A stretch of DNA of 64,000 nt from Torpedo marmorata (Eukaryota): positions 17,484,001 through 17,548,000 of the forward strand of contig OZ360251.1 in the NCBI GenBank assembly GCA_977017645.1, in the 5' to 3' direction. The position numbers and the translations under genes are program-made. This document shows, one piece after another, positions 1,700-62,904 of the stretch. Within the stretch, counting starts at the first letter, position 1, and each line of letters starts with the position of its first letter. A model generated the notes under the pieces. That model was not told where the DNA came from. It made no database searches and saw nothing but the letters and a program-made list of their open reading frames with translations.

Positions 1700-1781
1700 A
1701 CAAGTGCCAGTGAAAATCTTGCAAGATACTGGGGCTGCTCGGTCACTTGTGTTAGACAGTGTTTAACGGTGAAGAAACCGA
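1700..1781 (+). pseudogene. Aspartic protease, N-terminal half (continues at 12141)
   Basis: PVKILQDTGAARSLV motif; the reading resumes as ...DTGEINLIRGIG after the solo LTR. Confidence 0.8.
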
Positions 1782-5191: not shown

Positions 5192-5824
5192 GAAGATAGC
5201 AGAAGAAAGAATTGTTTGATAGATCATATTTAATTTTTAACTGGTCAAATGACATAAACTGACCCTTCTCATAACAATCTTTGATACACCTGATCCCTTT
5301 CTGATACCAGGTGTCCAAAATCTTGTTATCCATCATTGATTGTATTAACCTATTTTGAGCCAGGGGTGTTTTTGATGATAGCCCCACCTTAAATCCAATC
5401 TGTTGGTTTATTTTATACCAGATTGTAATTAAATGTTTTAATAGTGGGGTATCTTTCGCTCCAGATATCAGTTTAGTATTCCATTTATATATAAAGTCTC
5501 CTACCTTATACAGATCAATTTTTGCCCAGGAAGGTTTTTCTCCTCCCTCAAAGAGGGAGGTGATAAACCTCAACTGAGCTGCCCAATAATATTTTTTTTA
5601 ACTCTGGGAGTCGTAATCCTCCCAGGGTATAATCCCATGTTAATTTTTCAATGAGACTCTGGCCATCTTACCTTTCCAAAGAAATTTTTTTACACATTTG
5701 TTTAAATCTTGAAAAAACCTCTGGGGCAATAATATAGGTAAAGCCTGAAAAAGGTATTGAAGTCTTGGCATCACATTCATTTTTATACAATTAACTCAGC
5801 CAACTAACTTTATTGGCAGAGTCA

Positions 5825-13946: not shown

Positions 13947-14040
13947 TAAGCTCGAGGTTGGAAAATTCCATGGTTTTGCAGGATCTGGAAACAAAGTTGG
14001 CTCATCTCCAAACTTCAGAAAGGAAAATAAAAAGAGACAG

Positions 14041-22286: not shown

Positions 22287-22430
22287 TCACTTCTTCTCCA
22301 TCGTGCTGGAAAACATTGCAGCAAATTTGCGCAGCTGCTCTGTTGCCGACAGAGATTCCTCCTGGAGACGCTGGTTATTGACCCTCAGGTTTGCCACCTC
22401 TGCCTGCAGGACATTCTTATCTTCCTTCTC
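22287..22430 (-). CDS. SIPA1L3: SIPA1L3-like terminal coding exon (coiled coil and stop)
   Basis: AG acceptor; EKEDKNVLQAEVANLRVNNQRLQEESLSATEQLRKFAAMFSSTMEKK*, matching the SIPA1L3 C-terminus as I recall it. Confidence 0.92.
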   Translation of the reverse strand, partial: EKEDKNVLQAEVANLRVNNQRLQEESLSATEQLRKFAAMFSSTMEKK

Positions 22431-22461: not shown

Positions 22462-22605
22462 CATCAGATTTCTGAATGGACAATGAACCACAGACACTAC
22501 CTCACTTTCTCTTCTTTTGTACTAATTTGTTTATATTTTCACCTATAACACTGCTGCAAAAAAACAAATTTTGTGACATGTTCATGATAATAAAATCTGA
22601 TTCTG
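22462..22605 (+). mobile_element. Rex1/Babar 3'-end fragment
   Basis: Similar to the 3' ends at 47795-47963 and 59290-59468; ATTCTG tail. Confidence 0.7.
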
Positions 22606-25600
22606 AGAGAGAGAGCGCATGTGAGAGAGAGCGCGCGAAAGAGAGAGAGGGACTACGAATGAGAGAGCGCAAGAGACCACGAAAGAGAGAGCGTGCAAGA
22701 GCGCGTGCGAGAGCGAGCGAGAGAGAGAGCCAGAGAAAGAGCGCGCGAGAGAGCGCGAAAGACAGCACGAAAGAGAGCAGAGAAGGAGAGAGACAGAGAG
22801 AAAGAGACAGAGTGAAAGAGAGAGCGAGAAAGAGAGACAGAGCAAAAGAGAGCGCGAAAGAGAGAGCGCGAAAGAGAGAGAGAGCGAAAGAGAGACAGAG
22901 CGAAAGACAGAGCGAAAGAGAGACAGAGCGAAAGAGAGACAGAGCAAAAGAGAGACAGAGCAAAAGAGAGACAGAGCAAAAGAGAGAGAGAGCAAAAGAG
23001 AGAGAGAGCAAAAGAGAGAGAGAGCAAAAGAGAGAGAGCGAAAGAGAGAGAGCGAAAGAGAGAGAGCGAAAGAGAGAGAGCGAAAGAGAGAGAGCGAAAG
23101 AGAGAGAGCGAAAGAGAGAGCGAAAGAGAGACAGTGCGAAAGAGAGACAGAGCGAAAGAGAGACAGAGCGAAAGAGAGACAGAGCGAAAGAGAGACAGAG
23201 CGAAAGAGAGCGAAAGAGAGACAGAGCGAAAGAGAGACAGAGCGAAAGAGAGACCGAGCGAAAGAGAGAGCGAAAAAGAGAGAGAGCGAAAGAGAGATAG
23301 AGCGAAAGAGAGACAGAGCGAAAGAGAGACAGAGCGAGACAGTGCGAAAGAGAGACAGAGCGAAAGAGGGAGAGCGAAAGAGAGACAGAGCGAAAGAGAG
23401 ACAGAGCGAAAGAGAGAGAGCGAAAGAGAGAGAGTGAAAGAGAGAGAGCGAAAGAGACAAAGCGAAAGAGAGAGACAGAGCGAAAGAAACAGAGCGGAAG
23501 AGACAGAGCGAAAGAGACAGAGCAAAAGAGACAGAGCAAAAGAGACAGAGCGAAAGAGAGACAGAGCGAAAGAGAGACAGAGCGAAAGAGAGACAGAGCG
23601 AAAGAGAGACAGAGCGAAAGAGAGAACGAAAGAGAGAGCGAAAGAGAGACAGACCAAAAGAGAGAGAGAGCGAAAGAGAGACGGAGCGAAAGAGAGCTAA
23701 AGATAGAGCGAAATAGAGCTAAAGAGAGACAGAGCAAAAGAGAGAGCGAAAGAGAGAGAGCGAAAGAGAGACAGAGCGAAAGAGAGACAGAGCGAAAGAG
23801 ACAGAGCGAAAGAGACAGAGCGAAAGAGACAGAGCGAAAGAGACAGAGCGAAAGAGAGAGAGAGCGAAAGAGAGAGAGAGCGAAAGAGAGAGAGAGCGGA
23901 AGAGAGAGAGCGGAAGAGAGAGCGAGAGAGAGAGCGAAAGAGAGAGAGAAAGCGGAAGAGAGAGAGCGAAAGAGAGAGAACAAAAGAGAGACAGAGCGAA
24001 AGAGTGACAGAGCGAAAGAGAGACAGAGCGAAAGAGAGAGAGAGCGAAAGAGACAGAGCGAAAGAGACAGAGCGAAAGAGAGACAGAGCGAAAGAGACAG
24101 AGCGATAGAGAGACAGAGCGATAGAGAGACAGAGCGATAGAGAGAGAGCGAAAGAGAAACAGAGCGAAAGAGAGTCAGAGCGAAAGAGAGACAGAGCGAA
24201 AGAGAGCGAGAGACAGAGCGAAAGAGAGAGAGCGAAAGAGAGAGCGAAAGAGAGAGAGAGCAAAAGAGTGAGAGAGAGCGAGAGACAGAGCAAAAGAGAG
24301 AGAGCGAAAGAGAGACAGAGCAAAAGAGAGAGCGAAAGAGACAGAGCGAAAGAGAGAGCGAAAGAGAGACAGAGCGAAAGAGAGAGAGAGCGAAAGAGAG
24401 ACAGAGCGAAAGAGAGACAGAGCGAAAGAGAGACAGAGCGAAAGAGAGACAGACCGAAAGAGAGAGGGAGCGAAAGAGAGACGGAGCGAAAGAGAGTGCG
24501 AAAGAGACAGAGCGAAAGAGACAGAGCGAAAGAGAGACAGAACGAAACAGAGACAGAGCGAAAGAGAGACAGAGCGAAAGAGAGACAGAGCGAAAGAGAG
24601 ACAGAGCGAAAGAGAGAAAGCAAAAGAGAGAAAGCGAAAGAGACAGAGAGCGAAAGAGAGAGAGAGCGAAAGAGAGAGAGAACGAAAGAGAGAGAGAGAG
24701 CGAAAGAAACAGAGCTAAAGAGGGAGAGAGCGAAAGAGAGAGATCAAAAGAGAGAGAGCGAAAGAGGGAGAGAGCGAAAGAGAGATCGAAAGAGAGAGAG
24801 CGAAAGAGACAGAGCGGAAGAGACAGAGCGAAAGAGAGAGATCGAAAGAGAGAGAGAGCGAAAGAGGGAGAGAGCGAAAGAGAGAGATCGAAAGAGACAG
24901 AGCGAAAGAGACAGAGCGAAAGAGACAGAGCGAAAGAGACAGAGCGAAAGAGACAGAGCGGAAGAGACAGAGCGGAAGAGACAGAGCGGAAGAGACAGAG
25001 CGGAAGAGACAGAGCGGAAGAGAGACAGGGCGAAATAGAGAGCGAAAGAGAGAGAGAGCGATAGAGAGACAGAGCGATAGAGAGACAGAGCGATAGAGAG
25101 ACAGAGCGAAAGAGAGACAGAGCGAAAGAGAGACAGAGCGAAAGAGAGACAGAGCGAAAGAGACAGAGCGAAAGAGAGACAGAGCGAAAGAGAGACAGAG
25201 CGAAAGAGAGAGCGAAAGAGAGAGAGCGAAAGAGAGCGAAAGAGAGAGCGAAAGAGAGAGAGAGCAAAAGAGTGAGAGAGAGCGAAAGAGACAGAGCGAA
25301 AGAGAGAGCGAAAGAGACAGAGCGAGAGAGAGCGAAAGAGAGCAAAAGAGTGAGAGAGAGCGAAAGAGAGACAGAGCGAAAGAGGGACAGAGCGAAAGAG
25401 AGAGAGCGAAAGAGATAGAGCGCGAAAGAGAGAGCGAAAGAGAGAGCAGAAGAGAGAGAGAGCGAAAGAGACAGAGCGAGAGAGAGACAGAGCGAAAAAG
25501 AGACAGAGCGAAAGAGAGACAGAGCGAAAGAGAGACAGCGAAAGAGAGACAGCGAAAGAGAGAGAGAGCAAAAGAGAGAGCAAAAGAGTAGAGAGCGAAA

Positions 25601-28450
25601 GAGAGACAGAGCGAAAGAGAGACAGAGCGAAAGAGAGACAGAGCGAAAGAGAGACAGAGCGAAAGAGAGACAGAGCGAAAGAGAGAGAGCGAAAGAGAGC
25701 GAGCGAGAGAGAGCGAAAGACAGAGAGCGAAAGAGAGAGAGCGAAAGAGAGAAAGAGCGAAAGAGAGACAGAGCGAAAGAGAGACAGAGCGAAAGAGACA
25801 GAGCGGAAGAGACAGAGCGGAATAGAGAGCGAAAGAGAGAGAGCGAAAGAGAGAGAGAGCGAAAGAGACAGAGCGAAAGAGAGAGAGCGAAAGAGAGCGA
25901 AAGAGAGAGAGAGCGAAAGAGACAAAGCAAAAGAGAGAGACAGAGCGAAAGAAACAGAGCGGAAGAGACAGAGCGAAAGAGACCGAGCAAAAGAGACAGA
26001 GCGAAAGAGAGACAGAGCGAAAGAGAGACAGAGTGAAAGAGAGAGAGAGCGAAAGAGAGACAGAGCGAAAGAGAGACAGAGCAAAAGAGAGAACGAAAGA
26101 GAGACAGTGCGAAAGAGAGAACGAAAGAGAGAGCGAAAGAGAGACAGACCAAAAGAGAGAGAGAGCGAAAGAGAGACGGAGCGAAAGAGAGCTAAAGACA
26201 CAGAGCGAAATAGAGCTAAAGAGAGACAGAGCAAAAGAGAGAGCGAAAGAGAGCGAAAGAGAGACAGAGCGAAACAGAGACAGAGCGAAAGAGACAGAGC
26301 GAAAGAGAGAGAGAGCGAAAGAGAGAGAGAGCGAAAGAGAGAGAGAGCGAAAGAGAGAGAGAGCGAAAGAGAGAGAGAGCGGAAGAGAGAGAGCGGAAGA
26401 GAGAGAGAGCGGAAGAGAGAGAGCGAAAGAGAGAGAACAAAAGAGAGACAGAGCGAAAGAGAGACAGAGCGAAAGAGAGACAGAGCGAAAGAGAGAGAGC
26501 AAAAGAGACAGAGCGAAAGAGAGACAGAGCGAAAGAGAGACAGTGCGAAAGAGACAGAGCGATAGAGAGACAGAGCGATAGAGAGACAGAGCGATAGAGA
26601 GACAGAGCGATAGAGAGACAGAGCGATAGAGACAGAGCGATAGAGAGAGCGAAAGAGAAACAGAGCGAAAGAGATACAGAGCGAAAGAGAGCGAAAGAGA
26701 CAGAGCGAAAGAGAGCAAAAGAGAGAGAGCAAAAGAGAGAGCGAAAGAGAGAGAGAGCAAAAGAGTGAGAGAGAGCGAGAGACAGAGCGAAAGAGAGAGA
26801 GCGAAAGAGAGACAGAGCGAAAGAGACAGAGCGAAAGAGAGAGCGAAAGAGAGACAGAGCGAAAGAGAGACAGAGCGAAAGAGAGAGAGCGAAAGAGAGA
26901 CAGAGCGAAAGAGAGACAGAGCGAAAGAGAGACAAAGCGAAAGAGAGACAGAGCGAAAGAGAGAGCGAAAGAGAGACAGACCAAAAGAGAGAGAGAGCGA
27001 AAGAGAGACGGAGCGAAAGAGAGTGAAAGAGAGAGCGAAAGAGACAGAGTGAAAGAGTCAGAGTGAAAGAGAGAGAGTGAAAGAGACAGAGCGAAAGAGA
27101 CAGAGCGAAAGAGAGAGAGAGCGAAAGAGAGAGAGTGAAAGAGAGCGAAAGAGACAGAGTGAAAGAGACAGAGCGAAAGAGAGACAGAGCGAAAGAGAGA
27201 GAGCGAAAGAGAGTGAAAGAGAGAGAGCGAAAGAGAGAGAGCGAAAGAGAGAGCGAAAGAGACAGAGTGAAAGAGTCAGAGTGAAAGAGAGAGAGTGAAA
27301 GAGAGACAGAGCGAAAGAGACAGAGTGAAAGAGAGAGAGTGAAAGAGACAGAGCGAAAGGGAGTGAGACAGAGCGAAAGAGACAGAGTGAAAGAGAGATA
27401 GAGCGAAAGATAGATAGTGAAAGAGAGACAGAGCGAAAGAGACAGAGCGAAAGAGAGAGCGAAAAAGACAGAGCGAAAGAGAGAGCGAAAGAGACAGAGT
27501 GAAAGAGACAGAGTGAAAGAGACAGAGTGAAAGAGACAGAGCAAAAGAGAGACAGAGCGAAAGAGACAGAGCGAAAGAGAGAGTGAAAGAGAGAGCGAAA
27601 GAGACAGAGCAAAAGAGAGACAGAGCGAAAGAGACAGAGCGAAAGAGAGACAGAGCGAAAGAGAGACAGAGTGAAAGAGAGATAGAGCGAAAGATAGATA
27701 GTGAAAGAGAGACAGAGCGAAAGAGAGAGCGAAAGAGAGAGAGTGAAAGAGAGAGAGCGAAAGAGAGACAGAGCGAAAGAGAGACAGAGCGAAAGAGAGT
27801 GAAAGAGAGAGAGCGAAAGAGAGAGAGCGAAAGAGAGAGCGAAAGAGACAGAGTGAAAGAGTCAGAGTGAAAGAGAGAGAGTGAAAGAGAGACAGAGCGA
27901 AAGAGACAGAGTGAAAGAGAGAGAGTGAAAGAGACAGAGCGAAAGGGAGTGAGACAGAGCGAAAGAGACAGAGTGAAAGAGAGATAGAGCGAAAGATAGA
28001 TAGTGAAAGAGAGACAGAGCGAAAGAGACAGAGCGAAAGAGAGAGCGAAAAAGACAGAGCGAAAGAGAGAGTGAAAGAGACAGAGTGAAAGAGACAGAGT
28101 GAAAGAGACAGAGCAAAAGAGAGACAGAGCGAAAGAGACAGAGCGAAAGAGAGAGTGAAAGAGAGAGCGAAAGAGACAGAGCGAAAGAGAGAGAGTGAAA
28201 GAGACAGAGTGAAAGAGACAGAGCGAAAGAGAGAGAGTGAAAGAGACAGAGTGAAAGAGACAGAGCGAAAGAGAGAGAGTGAAAGAGAGAGCGAAAGAGA
28301 GACAGAGCGAAAGAGAGTGAAAGAGAGAGCGAAAGAGAGAGAGCGAAAGAGAGAGAGTGAAAGAGAGAGAGCGAAAGAGAGACAGAGCAAAAGAGAGACA
28401 GAGCGAAAGAGAGACAGAGCGAAAGAGAGACAGAGCGAAAGAGACAGAGA
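22605..28450. repeat. ~5.8-kb GA-rich satellite, unit ~12-16 bp (GAGCGAAAGAGAGACA and variants)
   Basis: Continuous tandem array; a GAGTGAAA variant dominates after ~27020. Confidence 0.97.
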
Positions 28451-29130
28451 GGGGAGAAACAGAGAAAATATAGCACAGTAACAGTTAAAAGTAATGCAGG
28501 TGAAAATTCATCACCCACGTGCTGATGTACTGACAATCAAAGGGGGCACTGAATACACAAATAAAGAGACAGTAGTGGACATTCCCCTTTCAGTGCTGGG
28601 ATTGATAGGTGACTGCGCTGGGCGACTAGTCCGCGGGCTGCACGGAGCTCGTCACCTCTGTACATGTAGTGGGTGGTTCCTCTGTTCCTAGTCATGGAAC
28701 GAACTGCCAATCTGGAAGTTCCCATGCTTCCTGCATTTCAACATTAGCTGTACATCGCTTCCTCTGAACCTAGTCAAGTATCAATGGAATTCTTTGGGAT
28801 AAGACCTAGTGCTTGGTAAAAAAAAAAAAGTTCCAATATCCCACTAAGGAATATTTCGGAAACATATCCTGGCTTTCTGATCCCAGTCCAATTTCACAAC
28901 CGCCTCAGGCGGTCAGTGACTCAGTGGAAAGCCTGATTTAATTTTTCTCACAGGACAATGACTAAGCAATGTTAAGTTTGTGGTTGAATCCTCTAATCTA
29001 GAACAATGACTATATCCAAGCATACATTCCATCTGATTTGTTAAATCCCACACTGAGGCCCTTCAGCCCATCAATACAGCCCTTTATGACGAAAATCCAA
29101 AGATCGGCCATGTCTCACATGTTCTGTCCT

Positions 29131-42762: not shown

Positions 42763-42940
42763 ATCAGGACGTACAAGCATTTCCCTATCTGTCTCCAGCA
42801 AAGGGCTGTCCAGCAGAATAAGCTTCTTCAAATCCTCTTCAAGGGTGGATTTCTGGGCTCTGCGCGGCGATCGGAGGTCCCGTAAAGATGCCCGCAATCT
42901 GGGCTGCCCAAAGACATTTGTGGAGGCAACACTGGATGCC
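42763..42940 (-). CDS. SIPA1L3: SIPA1L3-like exon (most 5' exon found in the window)
   Basis: ttccag/…/gtgagt boundaries; ASSVASTNVFGQPRLRASLRDLRSPRRAQKSTLEEDLKKLILLDSP...; 178 nt. Confidence 0.93.
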
Positions 42941-46499: not shown

Positions 46500-48283
46500 C
46501 AAGATCACCCGTAAACTGGAGAAGCAACACCTAATTTTCCGTCTGGGCACTCTCCAACCAAATGGTATTAACATCAACTTCTCCGGCTTCTGCTAGCCCA
46601 CTCCCCGTTCAAAAGGGCATCAATCATCCCGGTACCTAAGAAGAGTAGTGTGAGCTGCCTCAATGACTACCGCCCAGTAGCACTAACCTCTACTGTGATG
46701 AAATGCTTTGAGAGGCTGGTCAAGGCCAGAATTAACACGTACTTAAACAAAGATCTGGACCCACTGCAATTTGCCTATCGTCACAATCGCTCCACAGCAG
46801 ATGCAATATCACTGGCTCTCCACTCAGCTCTGGATCACCTCGAAAAGAGCAATTCATACATACGGCTGCTCTTCATCGACAACAGCTCGGCCTTCAATAC
46901 CATTATTCCCTCAGTGCTGGTCAAGAAGCTACAAACTCAAGGCCTCTGTACCCCACTCTGCAACTGGATCCTTGACTTTCTCATCGGAAGACCACAGTCA
47001 GTACGAATTGGAAACAACGTCTCCTCCTCACTGATTATCAACACAGGCGCACCCCAAGGATGCGGGCTTAGTCCACTGCTCTACTCGTTATACACCCATG
47101 ACTGTGTGGCCAGGCACAATTCCAATGCCATCTACAAGTTTGCCGATGACACCTCAGTTGTCGGCAGAATCACAAACGGCAATGAGGAAACGTACAGGAG
47201 GGAGATAGATCAGCTCGTTAAATGGTGTAACGACAACAACCTTGAGCTCAACATCAGCAAAACCAAGGAGATAATTGTGGACTTCAGGAGGAAGTCAGGG
47301 GAACACGACCCAGTCTTCATCGAGGGCTCAGTAGTGGAGAGGGTCAAGAACTTCAAATTCCTGGGTGTCAACATCTCCGAGGATCTGTCCTGGAGCATCC
47401 ACGTTGATGCAATCACAAAGAAGGCTCGTCAGCGGCTATACTTTGTGAGGTGTCTGAGGAGATTCGGTATGTCACCGAAGACTCTCGTAAACTTCTACAG
47501 GTGTACCGTGGAAAGCATTCTGGCCGGTTGCATCACTGCCTAGTATGGAGGCGCCAACTCTCAGGACAAGAATAAACTCCAGAGGGCTGTTAACTCGGCT
47601 TGTGACATCACAGGCACCAGACTTCACTCCTTCGAGGACATCTATATGAGGCGGTGTCTTAAAAAAGCAGCCTCTATCCTCAAAAACCCCCACCACCCAG
47701 GCCATGCCTCTTCACTCTGTTACCATCGGGAAAAAGGTACAGGAGCCTAAAGACGAGCACTCAACGGCACAAGGACAGCTTCTTCCCCACTGCCATCAGA
47801 TTCCTGAATAATCAATGAACCAAAGACACTGCCTTACTTTTCGTGCACTATTATTTATAATTTTTTATAGTAATGTCGTAAGATGGTTAATATGAATGTT
47901 TGCACTATGATGCTGCCGCAAATCACCGAATTTTATGACTTGTTCATGACAATAAATTCTGAATCCCTCTCTTCCCTATCTCTCTGTCTTCTTTCCTCCA
48001 GCTCTCCATCCCCTTCCCTCTCCATTCACAGAGCCATCCCCCCTCCCCTTGTTTGCTGCTGTGCCCTCCCTCCCTGATCCACCTATTACCTCCTGCCTTT
48101 GGGACTGTGCTCCTCCCCCTGTCCCTTCCCCCACCCCCCACCATTTTGTTCAGGCGCCTGCCTACATTTTGCTCATACCTTGATGAAGGGCTCAAGGTCA
48201 AAATGTTGGTGATGTATCTTTATCTTTGCTTCATAAAGTACACTGTTTGACCTGCTGAGTTTCTCCAGCATTGTGTTTTCACT
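46500..48283 (+). mobile_element. Penelope-like 3' end split by a Rex1 insertion
   Basis: [21 protein letters not shown] at 46513-46580; the C/T tract and pLTR resume at ~47965. Confidence 0.78.
46611..47963 (+). mobile_element. 5'-truncated Rex1/Babar LINE
   Basis: RT ORF 46650-47543 ([17 protein letters not shown]); AATAAATTCTGAAT tail. Confidence 0.92.
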
Positions 48284-48426
48284 ATTAACAAAGTTATTTG
48301 AGTATTAAAATGTTAGGAAGATTGAAGCCTTTGAATTCGGTTCCTACCTCCAACTCGATATCCTTGTAATCAACTTCACACCTACTCCCCAATGTTGGTG
48401 ATCTATTTGACCCAGACCTCATACCT

Positions 48427-49713
48427 CTCCACGGGAAACCTGCCACCCCTTAGTACCCTCTTTGGCATACTTAATTAACTAGCTAACCAGCTAACCGTAC
48501 CGCCCAACTCCCCCCGGGCTCTTTGCCTCTTTATATTATTTACCTTAAAAACCATTATTTACACAATATAACACAACTCAGTATAATGATACTACTACAG
48601 AAAACAAAACCATCCCTCTTAACCAGCGTCCCACTTTAAGTTCAATCAAAGTCCTTCTTTCCTCCTCGTTCCTTTCTCCAAACCTTAGGATCTTCCCGGG
48701 AGGTCTCGAACAAAGTCCGCAGCCTCCTGGGGCGTCCCGAAGAACTTTCTGCCTCCTTCTGGTGTGTCGAGCCTTAGCGTCGCGGGGTGGAGTAGCGCAT
48801 ATGGGATCCCCATCGCTCTCAGCTGCCGCTTCACTGTGTCGAACGCCCTCCGAAGCTTCACCAAGGACGCACTCAGGTCTGTGAAGAAAAGTACCTTCTC
48901 CCCTTCTGGATCAATGGGCCCGCCATTTTCTCTCGCACGTGCGGTTGCCACGCGCAGGATCCTCTCCCGGTCTTGGTAGTTGAGCAAACGCACCAAGACT
49001 GGTCTTGGTCGTTGGCCTGGATCTGGTCGGGGTCCGGTGGACCCTTTCTATGAATAAAGTTTTTTAAAAGTTTTCCTGGCCCAGGATCTTTGTGATCCAC
49101 CTTTCAAAATAACCCACTGGATCTTTCCCCTCCTTCAGCCCAATTATCCTGATATTATTCCTCCTGCTGAAGTTCTGCAGCCTATCAAGCTTCTCCAAAA
49201 TATTGTCTCTCTCCACTCTCCATGCATCGATATTATTTTCCTGCTTTTCTAGCCTCTCCTGGACGTCCTCCATTTTATCTTCAACCTCCCCCACTCGAGA
49301 GGTTAAAGCTCCAAACGAGTTCTTCAGCTCTCTGATCCCAGTTGTGAGCTCTCCAAACTTGGCTCGAGCGCAGCAATCTTGGCGTCTAGCCCAGTAATCT
49401 TGCCGGCTAGAGCCTGCACAGCTTGCAGGATATCACGCGATGTGGGCTCTGGGGCCCCACTCGCCTCTTCCAACGCCGGCATCATTATGGAGGTTCCCAA
49501 ACCGATGCTCCTGTGAGGAGAATCACCCGTTGATATCGACGACCTGGAGGCTTCTTCTTCCGCAGAAACTTGGTGTTTTGTCTTCTTTCCCATATTTGAA
49601 GAGATATTGATGTATTTAATGCTAAACTGACTGTTCTAAATGGCTTTAAATATCGATCTTTCAGGGAGCCCTTGGGTCCGTGTCTTCTCCTTATCGCCGC
49701 ATCACGTGACCCC
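48427..49713 (-). mobile_element. 5' part of L1-D (5' UTR, ORF1, start of spacer), inverted relative to its 3' part
   Basis: ORF1 fragments 49593-48685 (NFSRRNNIRIIGLKEG, FFTDLS, LLHPATLRL); TSD half GACCACCGACAAATT at 49714-49728. Confidence 0.9.
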
Positions 49714-50161
49714 GACCACCGACAAATTGGAGGAACAACACCTCATCTTCCATCTGGGCACCCTCCAACCGGATGGCATTAACATCGACTAATCCGGTCG
49801 ATTAAACCTCACCCCCCCCCCCCCCGCCATCTTCGACACCTGTCTCCTTTCCTCCAGCTCTGTCTCTCTCTCTCCTTTCACAGAGCCAAAATCAATTCTC
49901 ACCTTTCCTCTTATCATATCCAATTAACACCTTTTGTGTTGGTCTGGACTCCTCCCCCTCCCATTCTTCCCCCTTTCTCTCCCTAGATTTTATTCAGACA
50001 CCTGCCTGCTTTTTGTTTATACCTTGAAGAAGGGCTCAGGCCCGCAACGTCGGCAATATATCTTCACCTCCTCTGGGCGCTGCGAGACTGGCTGAGTTCC
50101 TCCAGCATTTATGAGTGTTTTTACTACAATCACAGCGTGTGCAGACTTGCGTGTTTCACTC
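49714..50161 (+). mobile_element. Penelope-like 3' part (GIY-YIG end and pLTR)
   Basis: TTDKLEEQHLIFHLGTLQPDGINID followed by the C/T tract and pLTR. Confidence 0.82.
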
Positions 50162-51039
50162 GAAGCAGATTATTGTCAGGATGGGAAATGTGACCCATGT
50201 ACAGGGTCCACATGCAGTGCATGAGGAGTAATCAGTCACTGGTCTCTCTCGGAGGTTGGGGGAAGAATGTAAGACAAAGCACAGAGGGGAAATTCCTGCA
50301 CATCAATGACTCTTCTATATCAAAGTAGATTACATTTTTGAAAGATCAGGGAATGGAAGACTGGGAACTGGCAGAGAGGAGGAGTGAAACCTGGGCCAGA
50401 TCAGCCAGGATCACATTGAATGAGGAAGCAGACTTGAGGGACCAAGGGACCCATTCCTGCTGTTTTACTGTTAACCCTTGTCTAACATTGCAGCATTCCC
50501 GTGTGTTAACAGTGAAATACCAAACTATTATCAGGGTTCCAGGACTTAAATGAGGCTCAAGTTCTCAACACTGACTTGTTGAGCTATGCTAGGGCAAACC
50601 AAAATTACTTTTGAGAATAAGGTCACAGTTTGGCCAACTGACAACATTACTTTGTAAGTTCAGTAACATCAGCTTGCATAGTAGTGAAAGAAGAAAAATG
50701 AGTGCCTGACTGAAGGACAGAACTTGATCCTGAAGTATTGAGGGGTGGGTACAGCTTTGCTAGAAAGCCGAGTTACAGGTATCTCGGAGGTGGCATGGAG
50801 CTGAGATGGCTGATATGCAAGTTGCCAGCGAGTATGGCAGTTGGACAGGATTGCAATAAAAATAAACCCAGATTTCAGGGAAGGTAGAAGGTAATAGACG
50901 CACGGTCTTCAATGTTAGATTGGAGATGTCCAGGGCTTTGGATGCCATTGTTGTTGAGCAAAGATACTGGTTGACTGGCTGAGGTCACTGGCAGCGGAGT
51001 TTAGGGTGTTTAGAGCGATGGCGTAGGTATGGGGAAAGC

Positions 51040-54000
51040 GGCAACCGCACGTGCGAGAGAAAATGGCGGGCCCATTGATCCAGAGGGGGAGAAGGTACTT
51101 TTCTTCCCAGACCTGAGTGCGGCCTTGGTGAAGCGTCGGAGGGCGTTCGACACAGTGAAGCGGCAGCTGAGAGTGAAGGGGATCCCATATGCGCTACTCC
51201 ACCCCGCGACGCTGAGGCTCGACACACCAGAAGGAGGCAGAAAGTTCTTTGGGACGCCCCAGGAGGCTGCGGACTTTGTTCGAGACCTCCCGGGGAGATC
51301 CTAAGGTTTGGAGAAAGGAACGAGGAGGAAAGAAGGACTTTGATTGAACTTAAAGTGGGACGCTGGTTAAGAGGGATGGTTTTGTTTTCTGTAGTAGTAT
51401 CATTATACTGAGTTGTGTTATATTGTGTAAATAATGGTTTTTAAGGTAAATAATATAAAGAGGCAAAGAGCGCGGGGGGAGTTGGGCGGTACGAAGTTAG
51501 CTGGTTAGCTAGTTAATTAAGTATGCCAAAGAGGACACTAAGTGCACCCCGTCTTGAGGGGGTTGATGGCGCCAAAGGAGTGGGTGTTGTTGTTGGTGCT
51601 GGAGCAAGGGGAAGGGACATTTTTTTTAATCTGCGTTTTTTTTCGCGGGCTTTTGTTTTTTTTTTAGCGTCATCGTCAGTGCTGAACAGATATATATATT
51701 ATTGTAAAAAGGGACAGACACACCATAGAAAAAATATACAAAGGGGCTATAAAAATGGGATGGAACTATACATATATTCAAATGAGTAAGACTATAAAAT
51801 TTCTTAGTTTTAATGTTAATGGATTGAACGGACCCATAAAGAGGAAAAGAGTCTTGGCACACCTTAAAAAGCTACAGGCGGATATAGTTTTCTTACAGGA
51901 AACGCATCTTACAAAGCAGGAGCATAGCAAATTAAAAAGAGGTTGGGTGGGACAGATAGCTGCATCTTCTTTTAACTCCAAAGCTAGGGGGGTAGCTATC
52001 TTAATAAATAAAAATGTTCCAGTGGTGGTTGGGGACACGGTTGTTGACTCGGCAGGAAGATATGTGATGGTACATTGTCAGATTTACTCAGAACCCTGGA
52101 CACTCTTGAATCTTTACGCACCAAATTTTGACGACGAGTCATTTATGCAGAATATTTTTTTTGAGAGTGACAGGAGGACGACAAAACGTTTTGATTGGTG
52201 GGGATTTTAACTTCTGTCTGGATCCCATTCTGGATAAATCGGCAAAGACAGTTAAGAAAGCCAGGGCGGCTAAAACAACCTTGGCTTTCATGAAAGATTT
52301 AAACCTAATAGATGTATGGAGACAGTTGCACCCTCAAGCTAGAGACTACTCCTTTTATTCAAAGCCCCATGATTCTTACACCAGAATTGACTATTTCCTG
52401 ATGTCTGCACAATTAGAAGGCATAGTGATTGAATCGGAATATCAAGCCAGACTTCTATCGGACCACGCGCCCTTGATTTTGTCTATGGTAACGTACAGAT
52501 GGCGCCTTAATTCTACGCTGTTGAAAAGACCAGATTTCTTTGGTTTTATAAGGGGTCAGATAAGTTTGTTTTGCGAAACAAACTGCCCCTCTACTAATAA
52601 TAGTTTTCTAATATGGGATACATTGAAGGCGTATCTAAGGGGGCAAATAATTTCATACACCAAAAATATCAAGAAAAAATATATGGCAGAAATAAACAAT
52701 TTGGAAGGGGAGATTTTAAAATTGGAAAAGGAATACCAACAGTCGGGATCAAAAGATAAATATCAAACTTTGGTAAATAAGAAACTTAAATATAATACTT
52801 TACAAACATACAAAATGGAGAAGGACATTTTAAGATCTAAGCAGAAATACTATGAATTAGGGGAAAGAGCACATAAGGTTTTGTCTTGGCAATTGAGGAC
52901 AGAGGAGACTTCGAGGACAATTAATGCAGTTCAGTCGGGACCGGATAAGATATCGTACAATCCAAAAGAGATCAATGACACTTTTAAACAGTTTTATGCA
53001 AAATTGTATGAGTCAGAGTCGCCAAGTGACTCAACTACAATAGATGAGTTCCTGTCCACGAATGAATTGCCAAGGTTGGACCAGGAGGATCAGATGGAAT
53101 TAGGTGCCCCATTCTCCGAAGAGGAGACTGAAAAAGCCTTGGGTTCTCTACAGGCAAATAAATCGCCGGGAGAGGATGGTTTCCCGCCTGAGTTCTACAG
53201 AGAGTTTAAGGATCTTTTGATGCCTCTTATTATGAATGTAGTTAACCAGGCGGCGGAAACACGGACTCTCCTGGAATCCTTTTCAACAGCTATTATTACA
53301 GTTATACCAAAGTAAAATAGAGACCCATTAAAACTTTCTTCATACAGGCCCATTTCATTATTAAATGCGGACTACAAAATAATAGCCAAGGCATTGGCTA
53401 ATAGATTGGGTCAATATTTACCAAAATTGATAAATTCGGACCAAGTCAGCTTTATTAAGAAGAGACACTCGGCCAACAATTTGGGCAGACTATTGAGTAT
53501 TATACATTTGGCACAATCAAAGGCAGACCCAAGTATAGCCGTGTCTTTGGATGCGGAAAAAGCTTTCGATAGGTTGGAATGGCCTTTCTTATTTAAAGTA
53601 CTGGAGAAATTTGGATTGGGAGAATCATTTATTAATTGTGTATGAACGCTCCATTACAAACCTCGGGCCAAGATCATTACGAATGGCCAGATATCATCGA
53701 CATTAAGTAGGTCTAGCAGACAGGGTTGTCCACTGTCTCCAGGTCTTTTTATCTTGGCAATTGAGCCACTGGCAGAATCTATTAGGTGGGACCCAGACAT
53801 AAAAGGATTCAGGGTGGACCAGGTGGAACATAAAATTAATTTATTTGCAGATGATGTGTTGTTGTATTTGACAGACCCTGCCGAGTCCTTGGCCAGGTTG
53901 CAGACCACACTGGAAGATTACGGCATGATTTCGGGTTACAAAATCAATTTAGAAAAAAGTGAGATCATGCCGTTGACAAAATTTGATTACGGGGAATATC

Positions 54001-55814
54001 AACAAAAGAGTCGCTTCAAGTGGCAACCAAAGGGTATTAAATATTTGGGAATAATGATTGATAATGATTTGCAAAATTTGTATAGACTTAACTACCTCCC
54101 TATGCTTGGAAAGATCGAAGACGATTTACTTAGGTGGAGGGACCTGCCCATTACTCTAGTGGGCAGGGTGAACTGCATTAAAATGAAGGTGATGCCGAGA
54201 CTGCAATACCTCTTTCAGTCCTTGCCAATCCCATTGCCGCGGGTCTTTTTTAAAGCACTAACGGACATGTAAGGCAATTTATCTGGAGTGGCAAGGTCTC
54301 CAGAGTTTCCATGGAGAAGCTGACATGGGATTACAATTTGGGGGGTTTGCGATTACCAGATTTTAAGAAACATTATTTAGCAGCTCAGTCGAGGTTTCTT
54401 TCATCCTTTTTCGAGGGGGACGATCCCCCCTCATGGGTCCAAATTGGACTACACACCATAGGAGAGAAAATAGCGAAGGACTTTATCTACAAATGGAACA
54501 CCAAATTAATATCTAGGCGAACGGACAATCCCATTCTAAAACATATGATTAAGATTTGGCAGGAAATCATTGAATGTACAGGAGGAAAGGTGGAAATATC
54601 ACCAAAGGCACCTTTGATCCAAAACGAAACTATACCCATGGCTTTGGGTAACAAAATTTTAAACATTTGGCACCAGAAGGGACTCCGATATATTGAAGAC
54701 TGTTACGAGAAAGGACAACTTATGTCTTTTGAGCAATTGAAGAGTAAATATGATTTGTCTAATGGAACCTTCTACTGTTTTCTTCAACTAAGGTCCTTCT
54801 TGAGGGATAGATGGGGTTCTACAATGACCCCACCTCGGTGTAATGAAATGGAAAAGTCGCTTCGATTGGGAAATGCACCTAAATTCATATCTAGAATGTA
54901 TTTCGTACTCCAAAGCGAAAGCCTTAAGCCGGGCCTACAAAGATCGAGAGAGAGGTGGGAGTCGGACTTGGGAACAACAATTCACGAACGATGCTGGTCA
55001 GACTGGTGTTTAGATAGCATGACAGCAGTCATTAATGCCAGATATAGGCTGGTTCAATATAATTTCCTACACCAATTGTATCTCACACCACAAAAACTAT
55101 ACAAGTCAAAACCAGAGATATCAGAAATGTGTTTCAGGTGTGGGATAGAAATTGGATCCTTTTTACTCTCCACCTGGTCATGTGCAAAGGTAAGGCCCTT
55201 TTGGCATGATTTGGCTAATGTACTAACTAGGATTACGGGAGTAGCCTTCCCACTAGACCCGGATTTGTATCTTTTAGGAAACCTCATGGACATAAGCAAA
55301 AGATTATCTAAATTCCAAATTCAATTTGTAAAAGTTGCACTGTCCGTAGCAAAAAACATGCATTGCAGTTACTTGGAAGTCCGACTCCCCCCTTCTCATC
55401 ACTCGATGGTCTACGGAAATGTACAGCTGTATCCCCATGGAAAAAAATTACATATAGTCTTAGAAATAAGTACGATAACTTTGTTAAAAGTGTGGCAACC
55501 ATACTTGGAGCACATTGGTGCTCAATTGTAATCAAACCTCTGAGGTATGGTGTACTGTAATGTATAATTATTTTAAGGGTGTGTCATCCCCAAGTACTTG
55601 GACAAAAGTTGTAAGTGCTGACGGTATGTTTAGTTTTCTTTTCCTTTTCTTTTTCTTCTGTTTTGGTTTTATTCTTTTTGGGTGGGGGAGGGAGGATTAA
55701 GGGGCGTAATGTATTCTGTACTTGATACGTTTGAAATTTATGTATGTTCGTGATTGTTTATTAATGTTTTGTGAAAATTTTGAAAATGAAAAATAAAATA
55801 TTTTTATTTTTTTA
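51040..55814 (+). mobile_element. 3' part of L1-D (ORF1 end, spacer, ORF2 51782-55531, 3' UTR)
   Basis: APE (FNVNGLNGPIKRK, FLQETHL, RIDYF, LSDHAP) and RT (SRQGCPLSP, LFADD), with several frameshifts and stops; AATAAA tail. Confidence 0.93.
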
Positions 55815-56172
55815 AATTTGTCGGTGGTCTCAGTCTGGCAGTGCATGAGACCATGGACAGACATGTCAGCAAGGGAATGGGACGGCGAATTGAAATGGAT
55901 ATCCACTGGGAGATCCACGCTAATGTGGCGGATAGCGTCGAGGTGCTCATCAAAGCTTATCATATCCAATTAACACCTTTTGTTTGTTGATCTGGACTCC
56001 TCCCCCTCCCACTCTTCCCCCTCTCTCTCCCAGTCTTCATTCAGACGCCTGCCTGCTTTTTGCTTACACCTTGAAGAAGGGCTCTGGCCCGAAATGTTGG
56101 TAATATATCTTTACCTCTTATGGATGCTGCAAGACCGGCTGAGTTCCTCCAGCATTTACTGTGTGTTTTTAC
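55815..56172. mobile_element. Penelope-like 5' part (minus, 55815-55954) joined to an oppositely oriented pLTR (plus, 55955-56172)
   Basis: Minus-strand FDEHLDAIR...HFNSPSHSLADMSVHGLMHCQTETTDK; the plus-strand part matches 49910-50130. Confidence 0.82.
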
Positions 56173-57444
56173 AATAATCTGTTTAGGGTTATGTACAGAA
56201 AGGCCTCAATCTTACCTTGTTCTCTGGGGGAAGAGGCTGGGACAGGACTGAGTAGGCAGTTAGACATAGTGGTGGTAAGAGTGAATGACTCTGCCAATAC
56301 TCCTCCCAATCTTTGCAGGGAAATACTCCAGTGTTAGTGCAGCCCTTCCCTAATGTTGTCCCTTGAATGGAGAAATCCGGTATAATCTTACAGCCTCCCA
56401 CTCTGGGCCACGGCACATCCACACCCTGTAATGAACAGCATCTTTCACAATTCGCAGTGCCCACCCACATTCACACTCGCTCAAAAACAGAACTGCTGAC
56501 CTTATTAATTTTGGTGAAAGGCATGAAGGCTGTTGAAACGGGATCCCTGCATAGAACTGCTGCAGTGAGCTGCCATTGTTCGGCAAGCAAACAATGCTCC
56601 TGCATCACAACAAAGCAATTATTCTCCATCAAATCTGCACTGCTGTTTCCTTTCACATGCCCGTGACGAATAGATAATGTAAACACTTCAGGAAGTTAAT
56701 GCTCTGCATTCATCCGGGGACTAATATTTTTCTCATGCCAGAAAAATTATTCCCAGGGTAAACATTTTTTTAATTTAAAATCAAACAAATGTGTTGTTGG
56801 GATTAATGTGGAAATTATGTGATTTTATTGCCTCATCTTTAGCCAAGCAGACAAGAAGAATGGGACTGTTGGGAAAAGCAGGGGTTGGTTCGTGACATAA
56901 AGAAGCATTTCCACCGATTAGCTTCAACTTCAGTTCAGATCATTCTGCTCATTTTGTGATTTGACACAAAATGCTTTGAAATTACTATTTAGTTGACACA
57001 TCAGATACAGTGATTGAAGGCTTCTCGAGTTTATTAGGGCTTCAGGCTGCTACTAAGAAGCAGCTATTTCCCTTATATAATCTACAGCCGGATGCTGGCT
57101 TTGAACCAGCAACTTCTGCTTTAGACTAAATCTATTGAGCGAAATACCAATCATCTGTGTGTGCAGAATGCCTCAGCTCAGTTCAGCTCTCTGAGGAGAG
57201 GCTTGTGTTAACCACATGGTATTAAAGGACATTGGCAGATGTGAATTTTATTTGATTGATTTTTTTTTTTTAAATCACATTTTATCTAGCACACAAAGCC
57301 ACAACTTAAATTCCTTTGGCAATGATAAAGATAGTAGTTTGAGATTTTCTGGGATTCAAATTAATAGAAGACTCTGAGAACTGTCAGATATCCAGACCTA
57401 TTCAAATGCTTAAAATATGCTGACTGTTAGCAAAATTCTCATTG

Positions 57445-58358: not shown

Positions 58359-58377
58359 GAGGAATAAAATTAAAACC

Positions 58378-59468
58378 ACAGCTCGGCCTTCAATACCATT
58401 ATTCCCTCAGTGCTGGTCAAGAAGCTACAAACTCTAGGCCTCTGTACCCCCCTCTGCAACTGGATCCTTGATTTTCTCATCAGAAGACCACAGTCAGTAC
58501 GAATTGGAAACAACATCTCCCCCTCACTGATTATCAACACAGGCGCACCCCAAGGATGCGTGCTTAGTCCACTGCTCTACTCGTTATACACCCATGACTG
58601 TGGCCAGGCACAATTCCAATGCCATCTACAAATTTGCCAATGACACCACAGTTGTTGGCAGAATCACAAACAGCAATGAGGAAGCGTACAGGAGGGAGAT
58701 AGATCAGCTCGTTGAATAGTGTAACGACAACAACCTTGCGCTCAACGTCAGCAAAACCAAGGAGATGATTGTGGACTTCAGGAGGAAGTCAGGGGAACAC
58801 GACCCAGTCTTCATCGAGGGCTCAGTAGTGGAGAGGGTCAAGAACTTCAAATTCCTGGGTGTCAACATCTCCGAGGATCTGTCCTGGAGCCTCCACGTTG
58901 ATGCAATCACAAAGAAGGGTCGCCAGCGGCTATACTTTGTGAGGTGTCTGAGGAGATTCGGTATGTCACCAAAGACCCTCGTAAACCTTTACAGGTGTAC
59001 CGTGGAGAGCATTCTGGCTGGTTGCATCACTGCCTGGTATGGAGGTGCCAACTCTCAGGACAAGAATAAACTCCAGAGGGTTGTTAACTCGGCCTGTGAC
59101 ATCACAGGCACCAGACTACACTCCATCGAGGACATCTACACGAGGCGGTGTCTTAAAAAAGCAGCATCTGTCCTCAAAGACCCACACCACCCAGGCCAAG
59201 CCCTCTTCACTCTGCTACCATCGGGAAAAAGGTACATGAGCCTAAAGACGAGCACTCAACGGCACAAGGACAGCTTCTTCCCCGCTGCCATCAGATTCCT
59301 GAATAATCAATGAACCAAAGACACTGCCTTAATTTCGTGCACTATTATTTATATATTTTTTATAGTAATGTCGTAAGATGGTTATAACATGAATGTTTGC
59401 ACTATGATGCTGCCGCAAAACACCGAATTTCATGACTTGTTCATGGCAATAAATTCTGATTCTGAATC
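58378..59468 (+). mobile_element. 5'-truncated Rex1/Babar LINE, same family as 46611-47963
   Basis: [10 protein letters not shown]...[14 protein letters not shown]...SFFPAAIRFLN; (ATTCTG)n tail. Confidence 0.92.
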
Positions 59469-61091: not shown

Positions 61092-62904
61092 AAAGAGAGA
61101 GAGAAAGAGAGAAAGAGAGAGGCAGAGGGAGGGGGAGCGGAGAAGGGGGGAGAGGGAGGGGAGAGGGAGGGGGAGAGAGAGGGGGAGAGAGAGGGGGAGA
61201 GATGGGGGGAGAGAGAGAGGGAGAGCGGGCGAGAGAGGGGGAGAGAGGGAAGAGAGAGGGGGAGAGAGATGGGGAGAGAGTGGGGGAGAGAGTGGGGGAG
61301 AAAGTGGGGGAGAAAGTGGGGGAGAGAGTGGGGGAGAGAGAGGGGGAGAGAGATGGGGAAATAGGGGGAGAGAGGGAGGGGAGAGAGGGAGGGGGAGAGA
61401 GGAGGAGAGAGGGAGGGAGAGAGGGAGGAGGAGAGGGAGGAGGAGAGGGAGGGGAGAGGGGGGAGAGAGTGGGGTAAGAGAGATGGGGGAGATAGGGAGG
61501 GGAGGGAGGGGGTAGAGAGGAGGGAGAGAGAGTGGGAGGGGGAGGGAGGGGGTAGAGAGGAGGAAGAGAGGGGGAGAGGGAGGGAGAGAGGAGGGGCGAG
61601 AGGAGGGGCGAGAGAAGGGGGAGAGGGGGTGAGAGAGGGGGAGATAGAGGAGAGAGGGAGGGGGAGAGGGGAGGGGAGAGAGAGGTGAGAGAGGGAGGGG
61701 GGAGGGAGAGGGAGAGAGATGGGGAGAGGGAGGGGGAGAGGAGGGGGAGAAGGAGGGAGAGAGGGAGCGAGGGGGGAGAGGGGGAACGAGGGGGGAGGGA
61801 AGGGGGTGAGAGAGGTTGAGAGGGGAGTGAGAGGGGGAGAGATGGAGGGGGAGAGATGGAGGGGGAGGGAGAGAGAGGGAGGGAGGAGGAGAAAGAGGGG
61901 GAGAGGGGGGTAGAGAGTGGTGTGAGAGAGTGGGGGAGAGAGAGGGAGGAGAGAGAGGGAGGAGAGAGAGGGGGGAGAGAGAGAGGGAGGAGAGAGGGGT
62001 TGAGAGAGGGGGAGAGAGGGGGTGAGAAGGGGGGAGGGAGAGAAGGGGAAGAGAGGGAGGAGAGATGGGTTGAGAGAGGGGGCGGAGAGGGGGGAAGAGA
62101 GTGGGGAGGGAGGGAGGGGGTAGGAGGAGGGAGAGAGAGAGGGAGGGGGAGGGAGGGGGTAGAGAGGAGGAAGAGAGGGGGAGAGATGGGGAGTGAGGGG
62201 AGAGAGAGGGGGAGGGAGTGGGAGAGAGGGGAGAGGGAGAGGAAGAGGGGGGAGAGGAGGGGAGGGGGGAGAGGGAGGACAGAGGGGGACGGGGAGAGGG
62301 GGAGAGAGGGGGAGAGAGGGGGAGAGAGGGAGAGGGGGGGAGAGAGGGGAGGAGGAGAGGGTGGAGAGAGGGGGAGAGGGGGGAGAGAGGTGGGGGAGAG
62401 AGAGTGGGAGAGGGGGNNNNNNNNNNNNNNNNNNNNNNNNNNNNNNNNNNNNNNNNNNNNNNNNNNNNNNNNNNNNNNNNNNNNNNNNNNNNNNNNNNNN
62501 NNNNNNNNNNNNNNNNGGAGAGAGTGGGGGAGAGGGGAGAGGGGGAGGGGGAGGAGAGGGGGAGGGGGAGGAGAGGGGGAGGGGGAGAGTGGGGGAGGGG
62601 GAGAGTGGGGGAGGGGGAGAGTGGGGGAGGGGGAGAGTGGGGGAGGGGGAGAGTGGGGGAGGGGGAGAGTGGGGGAGGGGGAGAGTGGGGGAGGGGGAGA
62701 GAGGGTGGGAGAGAGGGGAAGAGAGCGGAGAGAGGGTGAGAGAGGGGGAGAGGGGAGAGGGTGGGAGAGAGAGGGGGTAGGGGGAGAGGGGGCGGGGAGG
62801 AGAAGGGGGTAGAGGGGGGAGAGAGGGGGGGAGAGGTGGGGTGGAGAGGGGTGGGGAAGGGTGGGGGGGGAGAGAGGGGGGGGAGAGAGGGGGGGAAGAG
62901 AAGG
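61092..62904. repeat. G/A low-complexity tract containing a 100-N assembly gap (62417-62516)
   Basis: Almost pure purine on the plus strand; run of N. Confidence 0.95.

What the first reader, a model, noticed from the sequence alone, without database searches (positions are those of the whole stretch)
48420..55829. ~2.6-kb intronic inversion with a ~500-bp inverted duplication, revealed by an L1 whose TSDs now point in opposite directions
Seen: (1) The L1 5' part lies on minus (48427-49713) and the 3' part on plus (51040-55814). (2) GACCACCGACAAATT at 49714-49728 is the exact reverse complement of 55815-55829, and joining the flanks restores one Penelope reading frame (HGLMHCQTETTDK|LEEQHLIFHLGTLQP). 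(3) 48450-48948 and 51040-51542 are inverted copies of the ORF1 end and spacer with about a dozen differences. (4) CATACCT at 48420-48426 recurs inverted at 51025-51031, and an old L2-like remnant appears to read through that join. Inference: one full-length L1 inserted into a Penelope element, then ~48427-51031 was inverted by staggered breaks or template switching, not by ectopic recombination between repeats. The event also separated the L1 promoter and ORF1 from ORF2 and turned them sense to the host gene.
Basis: partly seen in the sequence, partly recalled or inferred. Interest (0 to 1): 0.7.

Follow-up and report, generated by a model that had tools for sequence, protein, structure and literature searches.

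The report
Inversion splitting a ray L1 retrotransposon
In an intron of a ray's SIPA1L3 gene, 2.6 kb of DNA holding the front of a dead jumping gene (L1) lies back-to-front with 505 bases duplicated, likely the scar of one repair accident during or soon after the element's insertion, a known kind of event that removes no exon.

Summary
The inversion is real, but one breakpoint was misread. One full-length L1 inserted into a Penelope copy in a 21-kb SIPA1L3 intron. Window 48449-51037 (1.27 kb of L1 5' end plus 1.32 kb of flank) is inverted, the 15-bp TSD copies face opposite ways, and L1 nt 793-1297 occur twice.

The proposed 7-bp outer duplication (CATACCT) is chance. A paralogous copy and an outgroup contig show a near-blunt outer break, whose two ends carry adjacent imperfect microhomologies to the L1. 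The 'L2 read-through' could not be confirmed. A diverged relative carries the inner junction.

The arms share one variant absent from 85 other copies and differ at 11-12 sites, so they come from one element and split early (lag 0-56% of its age). The best reading is fold-back of the L1's free 5'-side end during integration (0.40). Later break repair (0.30) or a templated patch followed by recombination (0.15) give the same sequence. Close analogues are known from human cells. The scan noted related inversions on other DNA, one in this genome. The inverted half's threefold excess of substitutions is unexplained.

The parts
42775..42939 (-). SIPA1L3 coding exon (aa 1417-1471 of P0001) that closes the intron; the preceding exon (aa 1350-1415) lies just outside the window at 64252-64446
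   Evidence: Pfam SPAR_C; named homologues, best 98% identical; exon map with consecutive residues and no exon between
48285..48456 (.). Left flank: old, near-single-copy DNA that ends at the outer breakpoint; family unidentified
   Evidence: Only one other match in the genome, L063, 92% over 48393-48456
48449..48456 (.). Junction 1: 8-bp imperfect microhomology (7 of 8) between the flank end and L1 nt 1290-1297
48449..49713 (-). Inverted 5' part of the L1 (nt 1-1297: 5' UTR, frameshifted ORF1, start of the spacer), now sense to SIPA1L3
   Evidence: ORF pieces
48449..48951 (-). Left arm of the inverted duplication (L1 nt 793-1297)
49714..49728 (-). First copy of the 15-bp TSD, abutting the true L1 5' end
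49714..50160 (+). 3' half of the host Penelope copy (end of ORF and downstream terminal repeat), inverted relative to its 5' half
50320..50466 (.). Old short dispersed repeat inside the inverted flank
   Evidence: 39 other matches at 73-83% among 40 scored
50467..51037 (.). Single-copy DNA inside the inversion; orthologous contigs in organisms A and B
51038..51044 (.). Junction 2: 7-bp imperfect microhomology (5 of 7 against the ancestral form, 4 exact bases in the window) between the flank end and L1 nt 793-799
51038..51542 (+). Right arm of the inverted duplication (L1 nt 793-1297)
51038..55814 (+). Forward 3' part of the L1: end of ORF1, spacer, broken ORF2 (endonuclease + RT), 3' UTR and short T/A tail
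   Evidence: Pfam Exo_endo_phos and RVT_1
55815..55829 (+). Second copy of the 15-bp TSD, after the tail
55815..55956 (-). 5' half of the host Penelope copy (5'-truncated)
55956..56179 (+). Oppositely oriented Penelope terminal-repeat segment at the 5' end of the copy
48420..48426 (.). CATACCT (inverted match at 51025-51031): chance 7-mer, not a breakpoint

Best explanation
A 2.6-kb stretch holding the 5' quarter of one full-length L1 and its upstream flank is inverted with a 505-bp inverted duplication, and it likely arose in one microhomology-driven fold-back and end-joining accident while the L1 was integrating. SHOWN: one L1, one 15-bp TSD now facing both ways, a near-blunt outer break with no duplication, two adjacent imperfect microhomologies there, and arms descended from one element. 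INFERRED steps: (1) Target-primed reverse transcription made a full-length cDNA, and second-strand synthesis from the TSD end copied L1 nt 1 to ~1297. (2) That strand came off as a long 3' overhang, and its tip annealed to an 8-nt near-complement in the same strand 1.3 kb upstream of the TSD, then extended. (3) The loop was cut at its base, which flipped flank plus L1 5' part and lost almost nothing. (4) The new free end annealed to the cDNA at nt 793-799 and was joined, which duplicated nt 793-1297. The result is a dead element in an intron, predicted to be nearly neutral.
For: Structure. In 14 of 16 other Penelope copies the terminal repeat follows the body in sense; here it does so only after re-inversion. 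Outer site: L063 reads GAAAGTGGTAAGTACCAAGGGGTGG, in which the inner-flank end and the left-flank end are adjacent. An 840-base contig of organism B (11-12% diverged, runs X2 and X5, one sample) continues past the inner flank as ...GGGGAAAGTGGTA, not into L1. Adjacent microhomologies with no loss are what cutting at the base of a fold-back loop predicts (inference). One source: variant 51394 is in both arms and in 0 of 85 other copies. Early timing: 1 shared private versus 11-12 unshared changes, likelihood ratio 1.2-6.5 for 'concurrent' over 'any later time'. Organism A, 64 differences in 3661 bases of mostly single-copy DNA, already has junction 2. [quoted passage not shown]
Against: The timing is loose: lag 0.4-56% of the element's age. 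The shared private variant is most simply a mutation that arose after insertion and before duplication. Such microhomologies are cheap: 3 sites in the L1 match the left end at 1 mismatch or fewer, and 5 sites in 3.8 kb of flank match the L1 tip. No inverted piece was found in 54 other fetched L1 regions, so integration-linked inversion is not a habit of this family. Microhomology-flanked internal deletions are common in these copies (9 events in 8 of 39, after setting aside L160, a nested insertion), which suggests that ordinary break repair of resident L1s is frequent. The organism-A contig reaches only 29 bases into the L1, under the tool's 31-base bar, and junction reads cannot tell orientation across a 505-bp arm.
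Confidence: 0.4

Rival explanations
1. The L1 integrated normally and was inverted later by break repair: a staggered break or collapsed fork inside the L1 plus a near-blunt cut or fold-back in the flank, joined by microhomology.
For: It gives the same final sequence. The shared private variant 51394 would be an ordinary mutation from before the inversion. One-sided inverted duplications of this size are described for staggered-break inversions (PMC1885836, passages). Inversions with a retrotransposon at only one breakpoint are common between human and chimpanzee (63 cases; PMC2603318, passages). Resident copies here often carry microhomology deletions.
Against: It needs the event to fall in the short interval between insertion and the split from organism A. 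The likelihood ratio against a uniform lag is 1.2-6.5. A 505-nt stagger must be unwound or supplied by a sister chromatid.
Confidence: 0.3
2. Two steps: a blunt break in the flank was patched with a 505-bp inverted copy of the neighbouring L1 (templated or endonuclease-independent insertion), and the resulting inverted repeats later recombined and flipped the DNA between them. The locus might still flip.
For: It gives identical junctions. Both broken ends show terminal microhomology to the L1, pointing towards each other. All three variants shared by the arms sit in one 176-bp difference-free tract, as a conversion tract would.
Against: It needs two events. The tract is not exceptional: 14 of 406 pairs of independent copies have an identical run at least as long, and the family is less variable there (1.2% versus 2.0%). 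There is no second TSD, tail or 3' end for an independent copy.
Confidence: 0.15
3. Twin-priming across two breaks: the broken left flank primed a second cDNA inside the L1 RNA at nt ~1297 while the normal cDNA ran to nt 793, and the excised flank piece was joined back reversed.
For: Polarity fits: the left end is complementary to the sense strand, the inner end to the cDNA. Single L1s 'sawed in half' bridge balanced rearrangements in tumours, and overlaps at twin-priming junctions occur (10.1101/2024.08.27.596794, passages and section 8 part 2). An unchecked scan note reports a twin-primed L1 elsewhere in this genome (e1-9926575).
Against: It needs an independent second break 1.3 kb away at the same moment. 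0 of 13 5'-truncated copies show a 5' inversion. In cell assays 5' inversion was nearly confined to human L1 in human cells (PMC4245944, passages).
Confidence: 0.1
4. Assembly artefact or haplotype mixing at the L1.
For: No raw or long reads were available. No contig laid here spans an arm, and junction 1 and the two TSD junctions were not seen in the cut read tables. There is a 100-N gap 7 kb away in the same intron.
Against: The arms differ at 12 sites with coherent private variants. Junction 2 is in an independent, diverged organism. The inner DNA is single-copy in the assembly. The microhomology junctions are base-clean.
Confidence: 0.05

Closest known systems
L1 insertion with local genomic inversion on the reciprocal end (human cell clones and tumours; 10.1101/2024.12.14.628481, section 9 read, figures not seen)
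   Same: kb-scale inversion that begins at the target site on the 5' side; TSD-like overlap kept but flipped; homology at the inversion junction; one tumour case counts genomic DNA plus L1 in the inverted piece (3,275 bp, 15-bp overlap)
   Different: Here it is germline, old and in a cartilaginous fish. The inverted piece carries the true 5' end of a full-length L1 with a 505-bp overlap and almost no deletion. Concurrence with insertion is inferred, not observed.
Single-L1-bridged balanced rearrangements by twin priming (10.1101/2024.08.27.596794, passages and section 8 part 2 read)
   Same: One L1 in two halves forms both bridges; one tail and one target site
   Different: Those cases are translocations or Mb-scale events whose halves share a breakpoint. 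Here the halves overlap by 505 bp, the TSD joins the canonical 5' end, and the family shows no ordinary 5' inversions (0 of 13 truncated copies).
Staggered-break inversions with inverted duplications in Drosophila (PMC1885836, passages)
   Same: Inverted duplication of a few hundred bases at one breakpoint only; no pre-existing repeat pair needed
   Different: The duplicated DNA here is part of a young L1, and the event is close in time to its insertion.
Retrotransposon recombination-mediated inversions and one-breakpoint L1/Alu inversions between human and chimpanzee (PMC2603318, passages)
   Same: Diagnosis by displaced TSDs; the one-breakpoint class is attributed to microhomology with the retrotransposon
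   Different: There is no second element with its own TSD, so this is not the two-element recombination class unless the partner was a patch copied from this L1.

Membership tests
Full-length L1 inserted by target-primed reverse transcription | ORF2 with APE-type endonuclease and RT | tested here: met
   Pfam Exo_endo_phos and RVT_1 in the broken ORF2 pieces
Full-length L1 inserted by target-primed reverse transcription | TSD abutting the 5' end and the 3' tail | tested here: met
   15 bp; 5' end at the same base as other copies; TSDs of 12-17 bp in 8 of the 11 full-length copies with a 3' match, and a similar short T/A tail
Classical twin-primed 5'-inverted L1 | Direct TSDs around the whole insert, no flank DNA inside | tested here: not met
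   TSDs are inverted and 1.32 kb of flank lies between the halves
Classical twin-primed 5'-inverted L1 | The 5' TSD joins the inverted piece at its internal end | tested here: not met
   The TSD joins L1 nt 1 in the normal sense
Recombination between two independent inverted retrotransposon copies (RRMI) | Two elements, each with its own TSD, swapped into hybrid pairs | tested here: not met
   One TSD pair only; the outer site is near-blunt and the 7-mer is chance
Recombination between two independent inverted retrotransposon copies (RRMI) | Arms derive from independent copies | tested here: not met
   Shared variant absent from 85 other copies; later gene conversion cannot be fully excluded
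Staggered-break inversion | Inverted duplication at one or both breakpoints | tested here: met
   505 bp at the inner break, none at the outer
Staggered-break inversion | Acts on an already integrated locus | tested here: inconclusive
   Lag 0.4-56% of the element's age
L1 insertion with reciprocal-end genomic inversion | Inversion adjoining the target site on the 5' side with the TSD overlap preserved | tested here: met
L1 insertion with reciprocal-end genomic inversion | Short homology at the self-annealing junction | tested here: met
   7 of 8 bases at 48449-48456, though such matches are common
L1 insertion with reciprocal-end genomic inversion | Inversion formed during the insertion | tested here: inconclusive
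   Likelihood ratio 1.2-6.5 in favour; no intact-L1 allele was looked for in long reads
   No match but itself and L063 in genome DNA and protein searches or in about 1.0 Mb of fetched loci; these searches miss very old repeats

The most novel reading that the evidence does not exclude
The locus is a germline fossil of an L1 integration intermediate outside mammals. It records second-strand synthesis running 1.3 kb from the target site, folding back and flipping its own flank. The roughly threefold excess of substitutions in the inverted half (26 in 1239 bases versus 29 in 4215) would be the error burst of that single-stranded repair, which would make inverted-TSD L1s a readable record of second-strand synthesis in fish genomes.
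Probability: 0.2. Interest if true: 0.6.

Novelty: new member of a known kind. Interest (0 to 1): 0.33.

Why it matters
As one locus it matters little: the element is dead, no SIPA1L3 exon is touched, and kb-scale L1-associated inversions are known from human cells, tumours and primate comparisons. Its value is as an unusually legible case. An outgroup gives the pre-break sequence to the base, so competing repair models can be stated precisely. If the inversion was made during integration, it would extend a class described in human somatic cells to an inherited event in a cartilaginous fish whose L1 family shows no routine 5' inversion. I found no such report in one narrow search (shark + inversion + LINE-1 + twin priming: 1 unrelated review), which does not prove absence. 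The leftover 505-bp inverted repeats could keep the segment flippable, and the L1 promoter now points at a SIPA1L3 exon 5.5 kb away; both points are untested.

Tried and rejected
The 7-bp CATACCT duplication was rejected. Reading 48427-48448 as untemplated filler was rejected, because it is flank.

Identifying the old flank as L2 or Penelope RT gave no hit. Looking 10 kb either side of L063 for more of the flank found nothing. A second haplotype of the locus in the assembly was not found.

Gene conversion in the 176-bp identical tract is not significant (14 of 406 pairs). Different L1 sub-lineages for the two halves gave no pattern (rho 0.09 over 33 copies), but the family is star-like and the test is weak. 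There is no strand-coordinated C or G signature in the inverted half. No lost SIPA1L3 exon lies in the inverted DNA.

Run X6 laid nothing on 50470-51075, which is no evidence of absence. The 16-kb read laying was swamped by repeats; its opposite-strand joints at 49723/55824 come from ordinary Penelope copies, not from this locus. Supplements and figures of the two preprints were not seen and may hold closer analogues.
Full report
SETTING. The window is G000:C74:17484001-17548000 of a 6.2-Gb genome. An exon at 42775-42939 (minus) carries SPAR_C, and its best named match is a ray SIPA1L3 at 98%. Mapping two such proteins over the window and 110 kb of neighbouring DNA gives a run of minus-strand exons. 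Residues 1350-1415 lie at 64446-64252 and residues 1417-1471 at 42939-42775, with nothing between (Rap_GAP exons further upstream). The finding therefore sits in a 21-kb intron and removes no exon.

THE OBSERVATION. The 15-mer at 49714-49728 is the exact reverse complement of 55815-55829, is not extendable, and occurs only there. Against an ordinary full-length copy, the window holds L1 nt 1-1297 on minus (49713-48449) and nt 793-5586 on plus (from 51038). The 5' end falls on the same base as in other copies. TSDs of 12-17 bp and a short T/A tail are normal for the family (8 of 11 full-length copies with a 3' match; 4 of the 15 fetched had none in range). ORF2 has endonuclease and RT domains but is broken by stops and frameshifts, as is ORF1. 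The target is a 5'-truncated Penelope copy whose frame is split at the TSD. In 14 of 16 other copies the terminal repeat follows the body in sense, which holds here only after re-inversion. The arms differ by 12 substitutions and a 2-bp gap; one of the 12 (48455) is a flank letter, not a mutation.

THE OUTER BREAK WAS MISREAD. That 7-mer occurs 11 times in the window. A lone paralogous stretch 6 Mb away (L063; the only other match) aligns with the left flank straight through it to 48456 (59 of 64 bases). L063 then continues with letters that match the end of the inner flank: it reads GAAAGTGGTAAGTACCAAGGGGTGG, while the window has ...GGGAAAGCGG running into L1 at junction 2 and L1 running into GTACTAAGGGGTGG at junction 1. 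Organism B (runs X2 and X5, one sample, 57 differences in 487 bases) has an 840-base contig over 50506-51015 whose 228 loose letters begin TGCGATAGCTTGAGTATGGGGAAAGTGGTA. That agrees with L063 and not with L1; only 30 letters are shown, so B alone does not reach the left flank. Together these show a near-blunt ancestral break with 0-3 bases lost and nothing duplicated. Each end carries an imperfect microhomology to the L1 (7 of 8 at nt 1290-1297; 5 of 7 at nt 793-799), and the two are adjacent in the ancestral sequence. Such matches are individually cheap; it is their adjacency that is informative. It argues for a cut at one point and against free serial template switching (inference). No search supported an L2 identity for this DNA.

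IS IT REAL? Run X1 (organism A) has a 514-base contig on 50533-51066, with 14 differences and 20 gap letters far from the junction, that runs from the inner flank 29 bases into the L1. That is just under the tool's 31-base bar for bridging. Over eight pieces (seven of the eight X1 pieces listed, the one inside the L1 dropped, plus one) A differs by 64 of 3661 bases. It is therefore an independent, diverged lineage that shares junction 2. Junction 1 and the TSD junctions were not visible in the cut tables, and short contigs cannot phase orientation across a 505-bp arm. I put the inversion as assembled at about 0.9.

ONE SOURCE, EARLY SPLIT. The arms share three non-majority letters. Two (51402, 51448) occur together in 7 of 54 other copies and are lineage or recurrent variants. 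One (51394) is in 0 of 85. Against that stand 11-12 unshared changes. The lag between insertion and duplication is estimated at 15% of the element's age (95% interval 0.4-56%). The likelihood ratio for 'concurrent' over 'any later time' is 1.2-6.5 across assumptions. This is modest support. The element's own rare-variant load (about 1%) is similar to half the distance to organism A (0.9%), which also leaves little time, though the two rates need not be equal. All three shared letters lie in a 176-bp identical tract, but 14 of 406 independent pairs do as well.

MECHANISM. Four routes give this sequence. (a) Fold-back during integration (0.40): the second strand primed at the TSD reached nt ~1297, came off, annealed to its 8-nt near-complement 1.3 kb upstream in the same strand, was cut at the loop base, and the freed end joined the cDNA at nt 793. 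This needs one lesion and explains the adjacent microhomologies. It follows the self-annealing model for L1 insertions with reciprocal-end inversions (10.1101/2024.12.14.628481: passages, section 9). (b) The same chemistry, or a staggered break, after insertion (0.30; PMC1885836 passages; PMC2603318 passages). (d) Twin-priming from a second break (0.10; 10.1101/2024.08.27.596794 passages and section 8 part 2). Against (d), and partly (a): none of 54 fetched L1 regions (some overlapping) holds an inverted piece, including 0 of 13 copies truncated within the fetched stretch. Also, 5' inversion in cell assays was nearly confined to human L1 in human cells (PMC4245944 passages). PMC2912911 was read in passages for the twin-priming definition. 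All steps of (a)-(d) are inferred.

UNEXPLAINED. The inverted L1 half has 26 rare substitutions in 1239 bases against 29 in 4215 for the forward part beyond the arm. The ratio is 3.05, above all 35 comparison copies (maximum 2.33, pooled 1.12; binomial p 2e-4). This was a post-hoc test, the comparison copies were chosen by likeness to the window, and the copies are overdispersed, so about 1 in 36 is the fairer figure. There is no strand-coordinated signature and no sign of a different sub-lineage. Error-prone repair of a long single strand would fit (a) or (b), but this is not shown.

VERDICT. A real, well-preserved small inversion of a known kind, with the outer breakpoint corrected and the timing tied loosely to the L1 insertion. 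It is probably neutral. Earlier scan notes describe related TE-linked inversions on other DNA; they were not checked and are not used as support. Interest 0.33.

Noticed in passing
window 48457-49713 versus 51543-55800: The inverted L1 half has about three times the rare-substitution density of the forward half (2.1% versus 0.7%), more than any of 35 other copies; unexplained.
   Followed up: partly
L063 (G000:C74:23535145-23535219): A lone ~75-bp, 92%-identical copy of the sequence spanning the ancestral outer breakpoint, wedged between two repeats 6 Mb away; no further similarity within 10 kb either side.
   Followed up: partly
L156-L194: Internal deletions of 64-996 bp, mostly with 1-11 bp of overlap, in 8 of 39 L1 copies; L160 holds a truncated L1 nested in another L1.
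   Followed up: partly
L174:3024-3896 and L166:5877-5915: L174 has a 168-bp direct duplication of L1 sequence around a ~870-bp insert; L166 has a ~78-bp duplication around 38 bp.
   Followed up: no
window 46879-47965 and 58375-59462: Two 95%-identical RT-bearing LINE copies (RVT_1 + ALKBH8_N; Rex1/Babar-like, label recalled) in direct orientation 11.5 kb apart bracket the whole locus.
   Followed up: no
window 55956-56179: The host Penelope copy has an oppositely oriented terminal-repeat segment at its truncated 5' end; 2 of 16 other copies show an upstream inverted segment within the stretch held.
   Followed up: partly
window 651-15363: Decayed LTR-type retroelement frames (gag-like, integrase-like before RT-like; labels recalled from the translations), interrupted by older L1-like pieces.
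   Followed up: no
window 22500-28500: A ~6-kb purine-rich simple repeat next to a SIPA1L3 3' exon at 22290-22430.
   Followed up: no
window 62417-62516: A 100-N assembly gap amid G-rich simple sequence in the same intron.
   Followed up: no
G000:C40:35902996-35903895: Two Rap_GAP profile segments that are separate exons on C74 lie in one 545-aa open frame here: possible intron loss in a paralogue.
   Followed up: no
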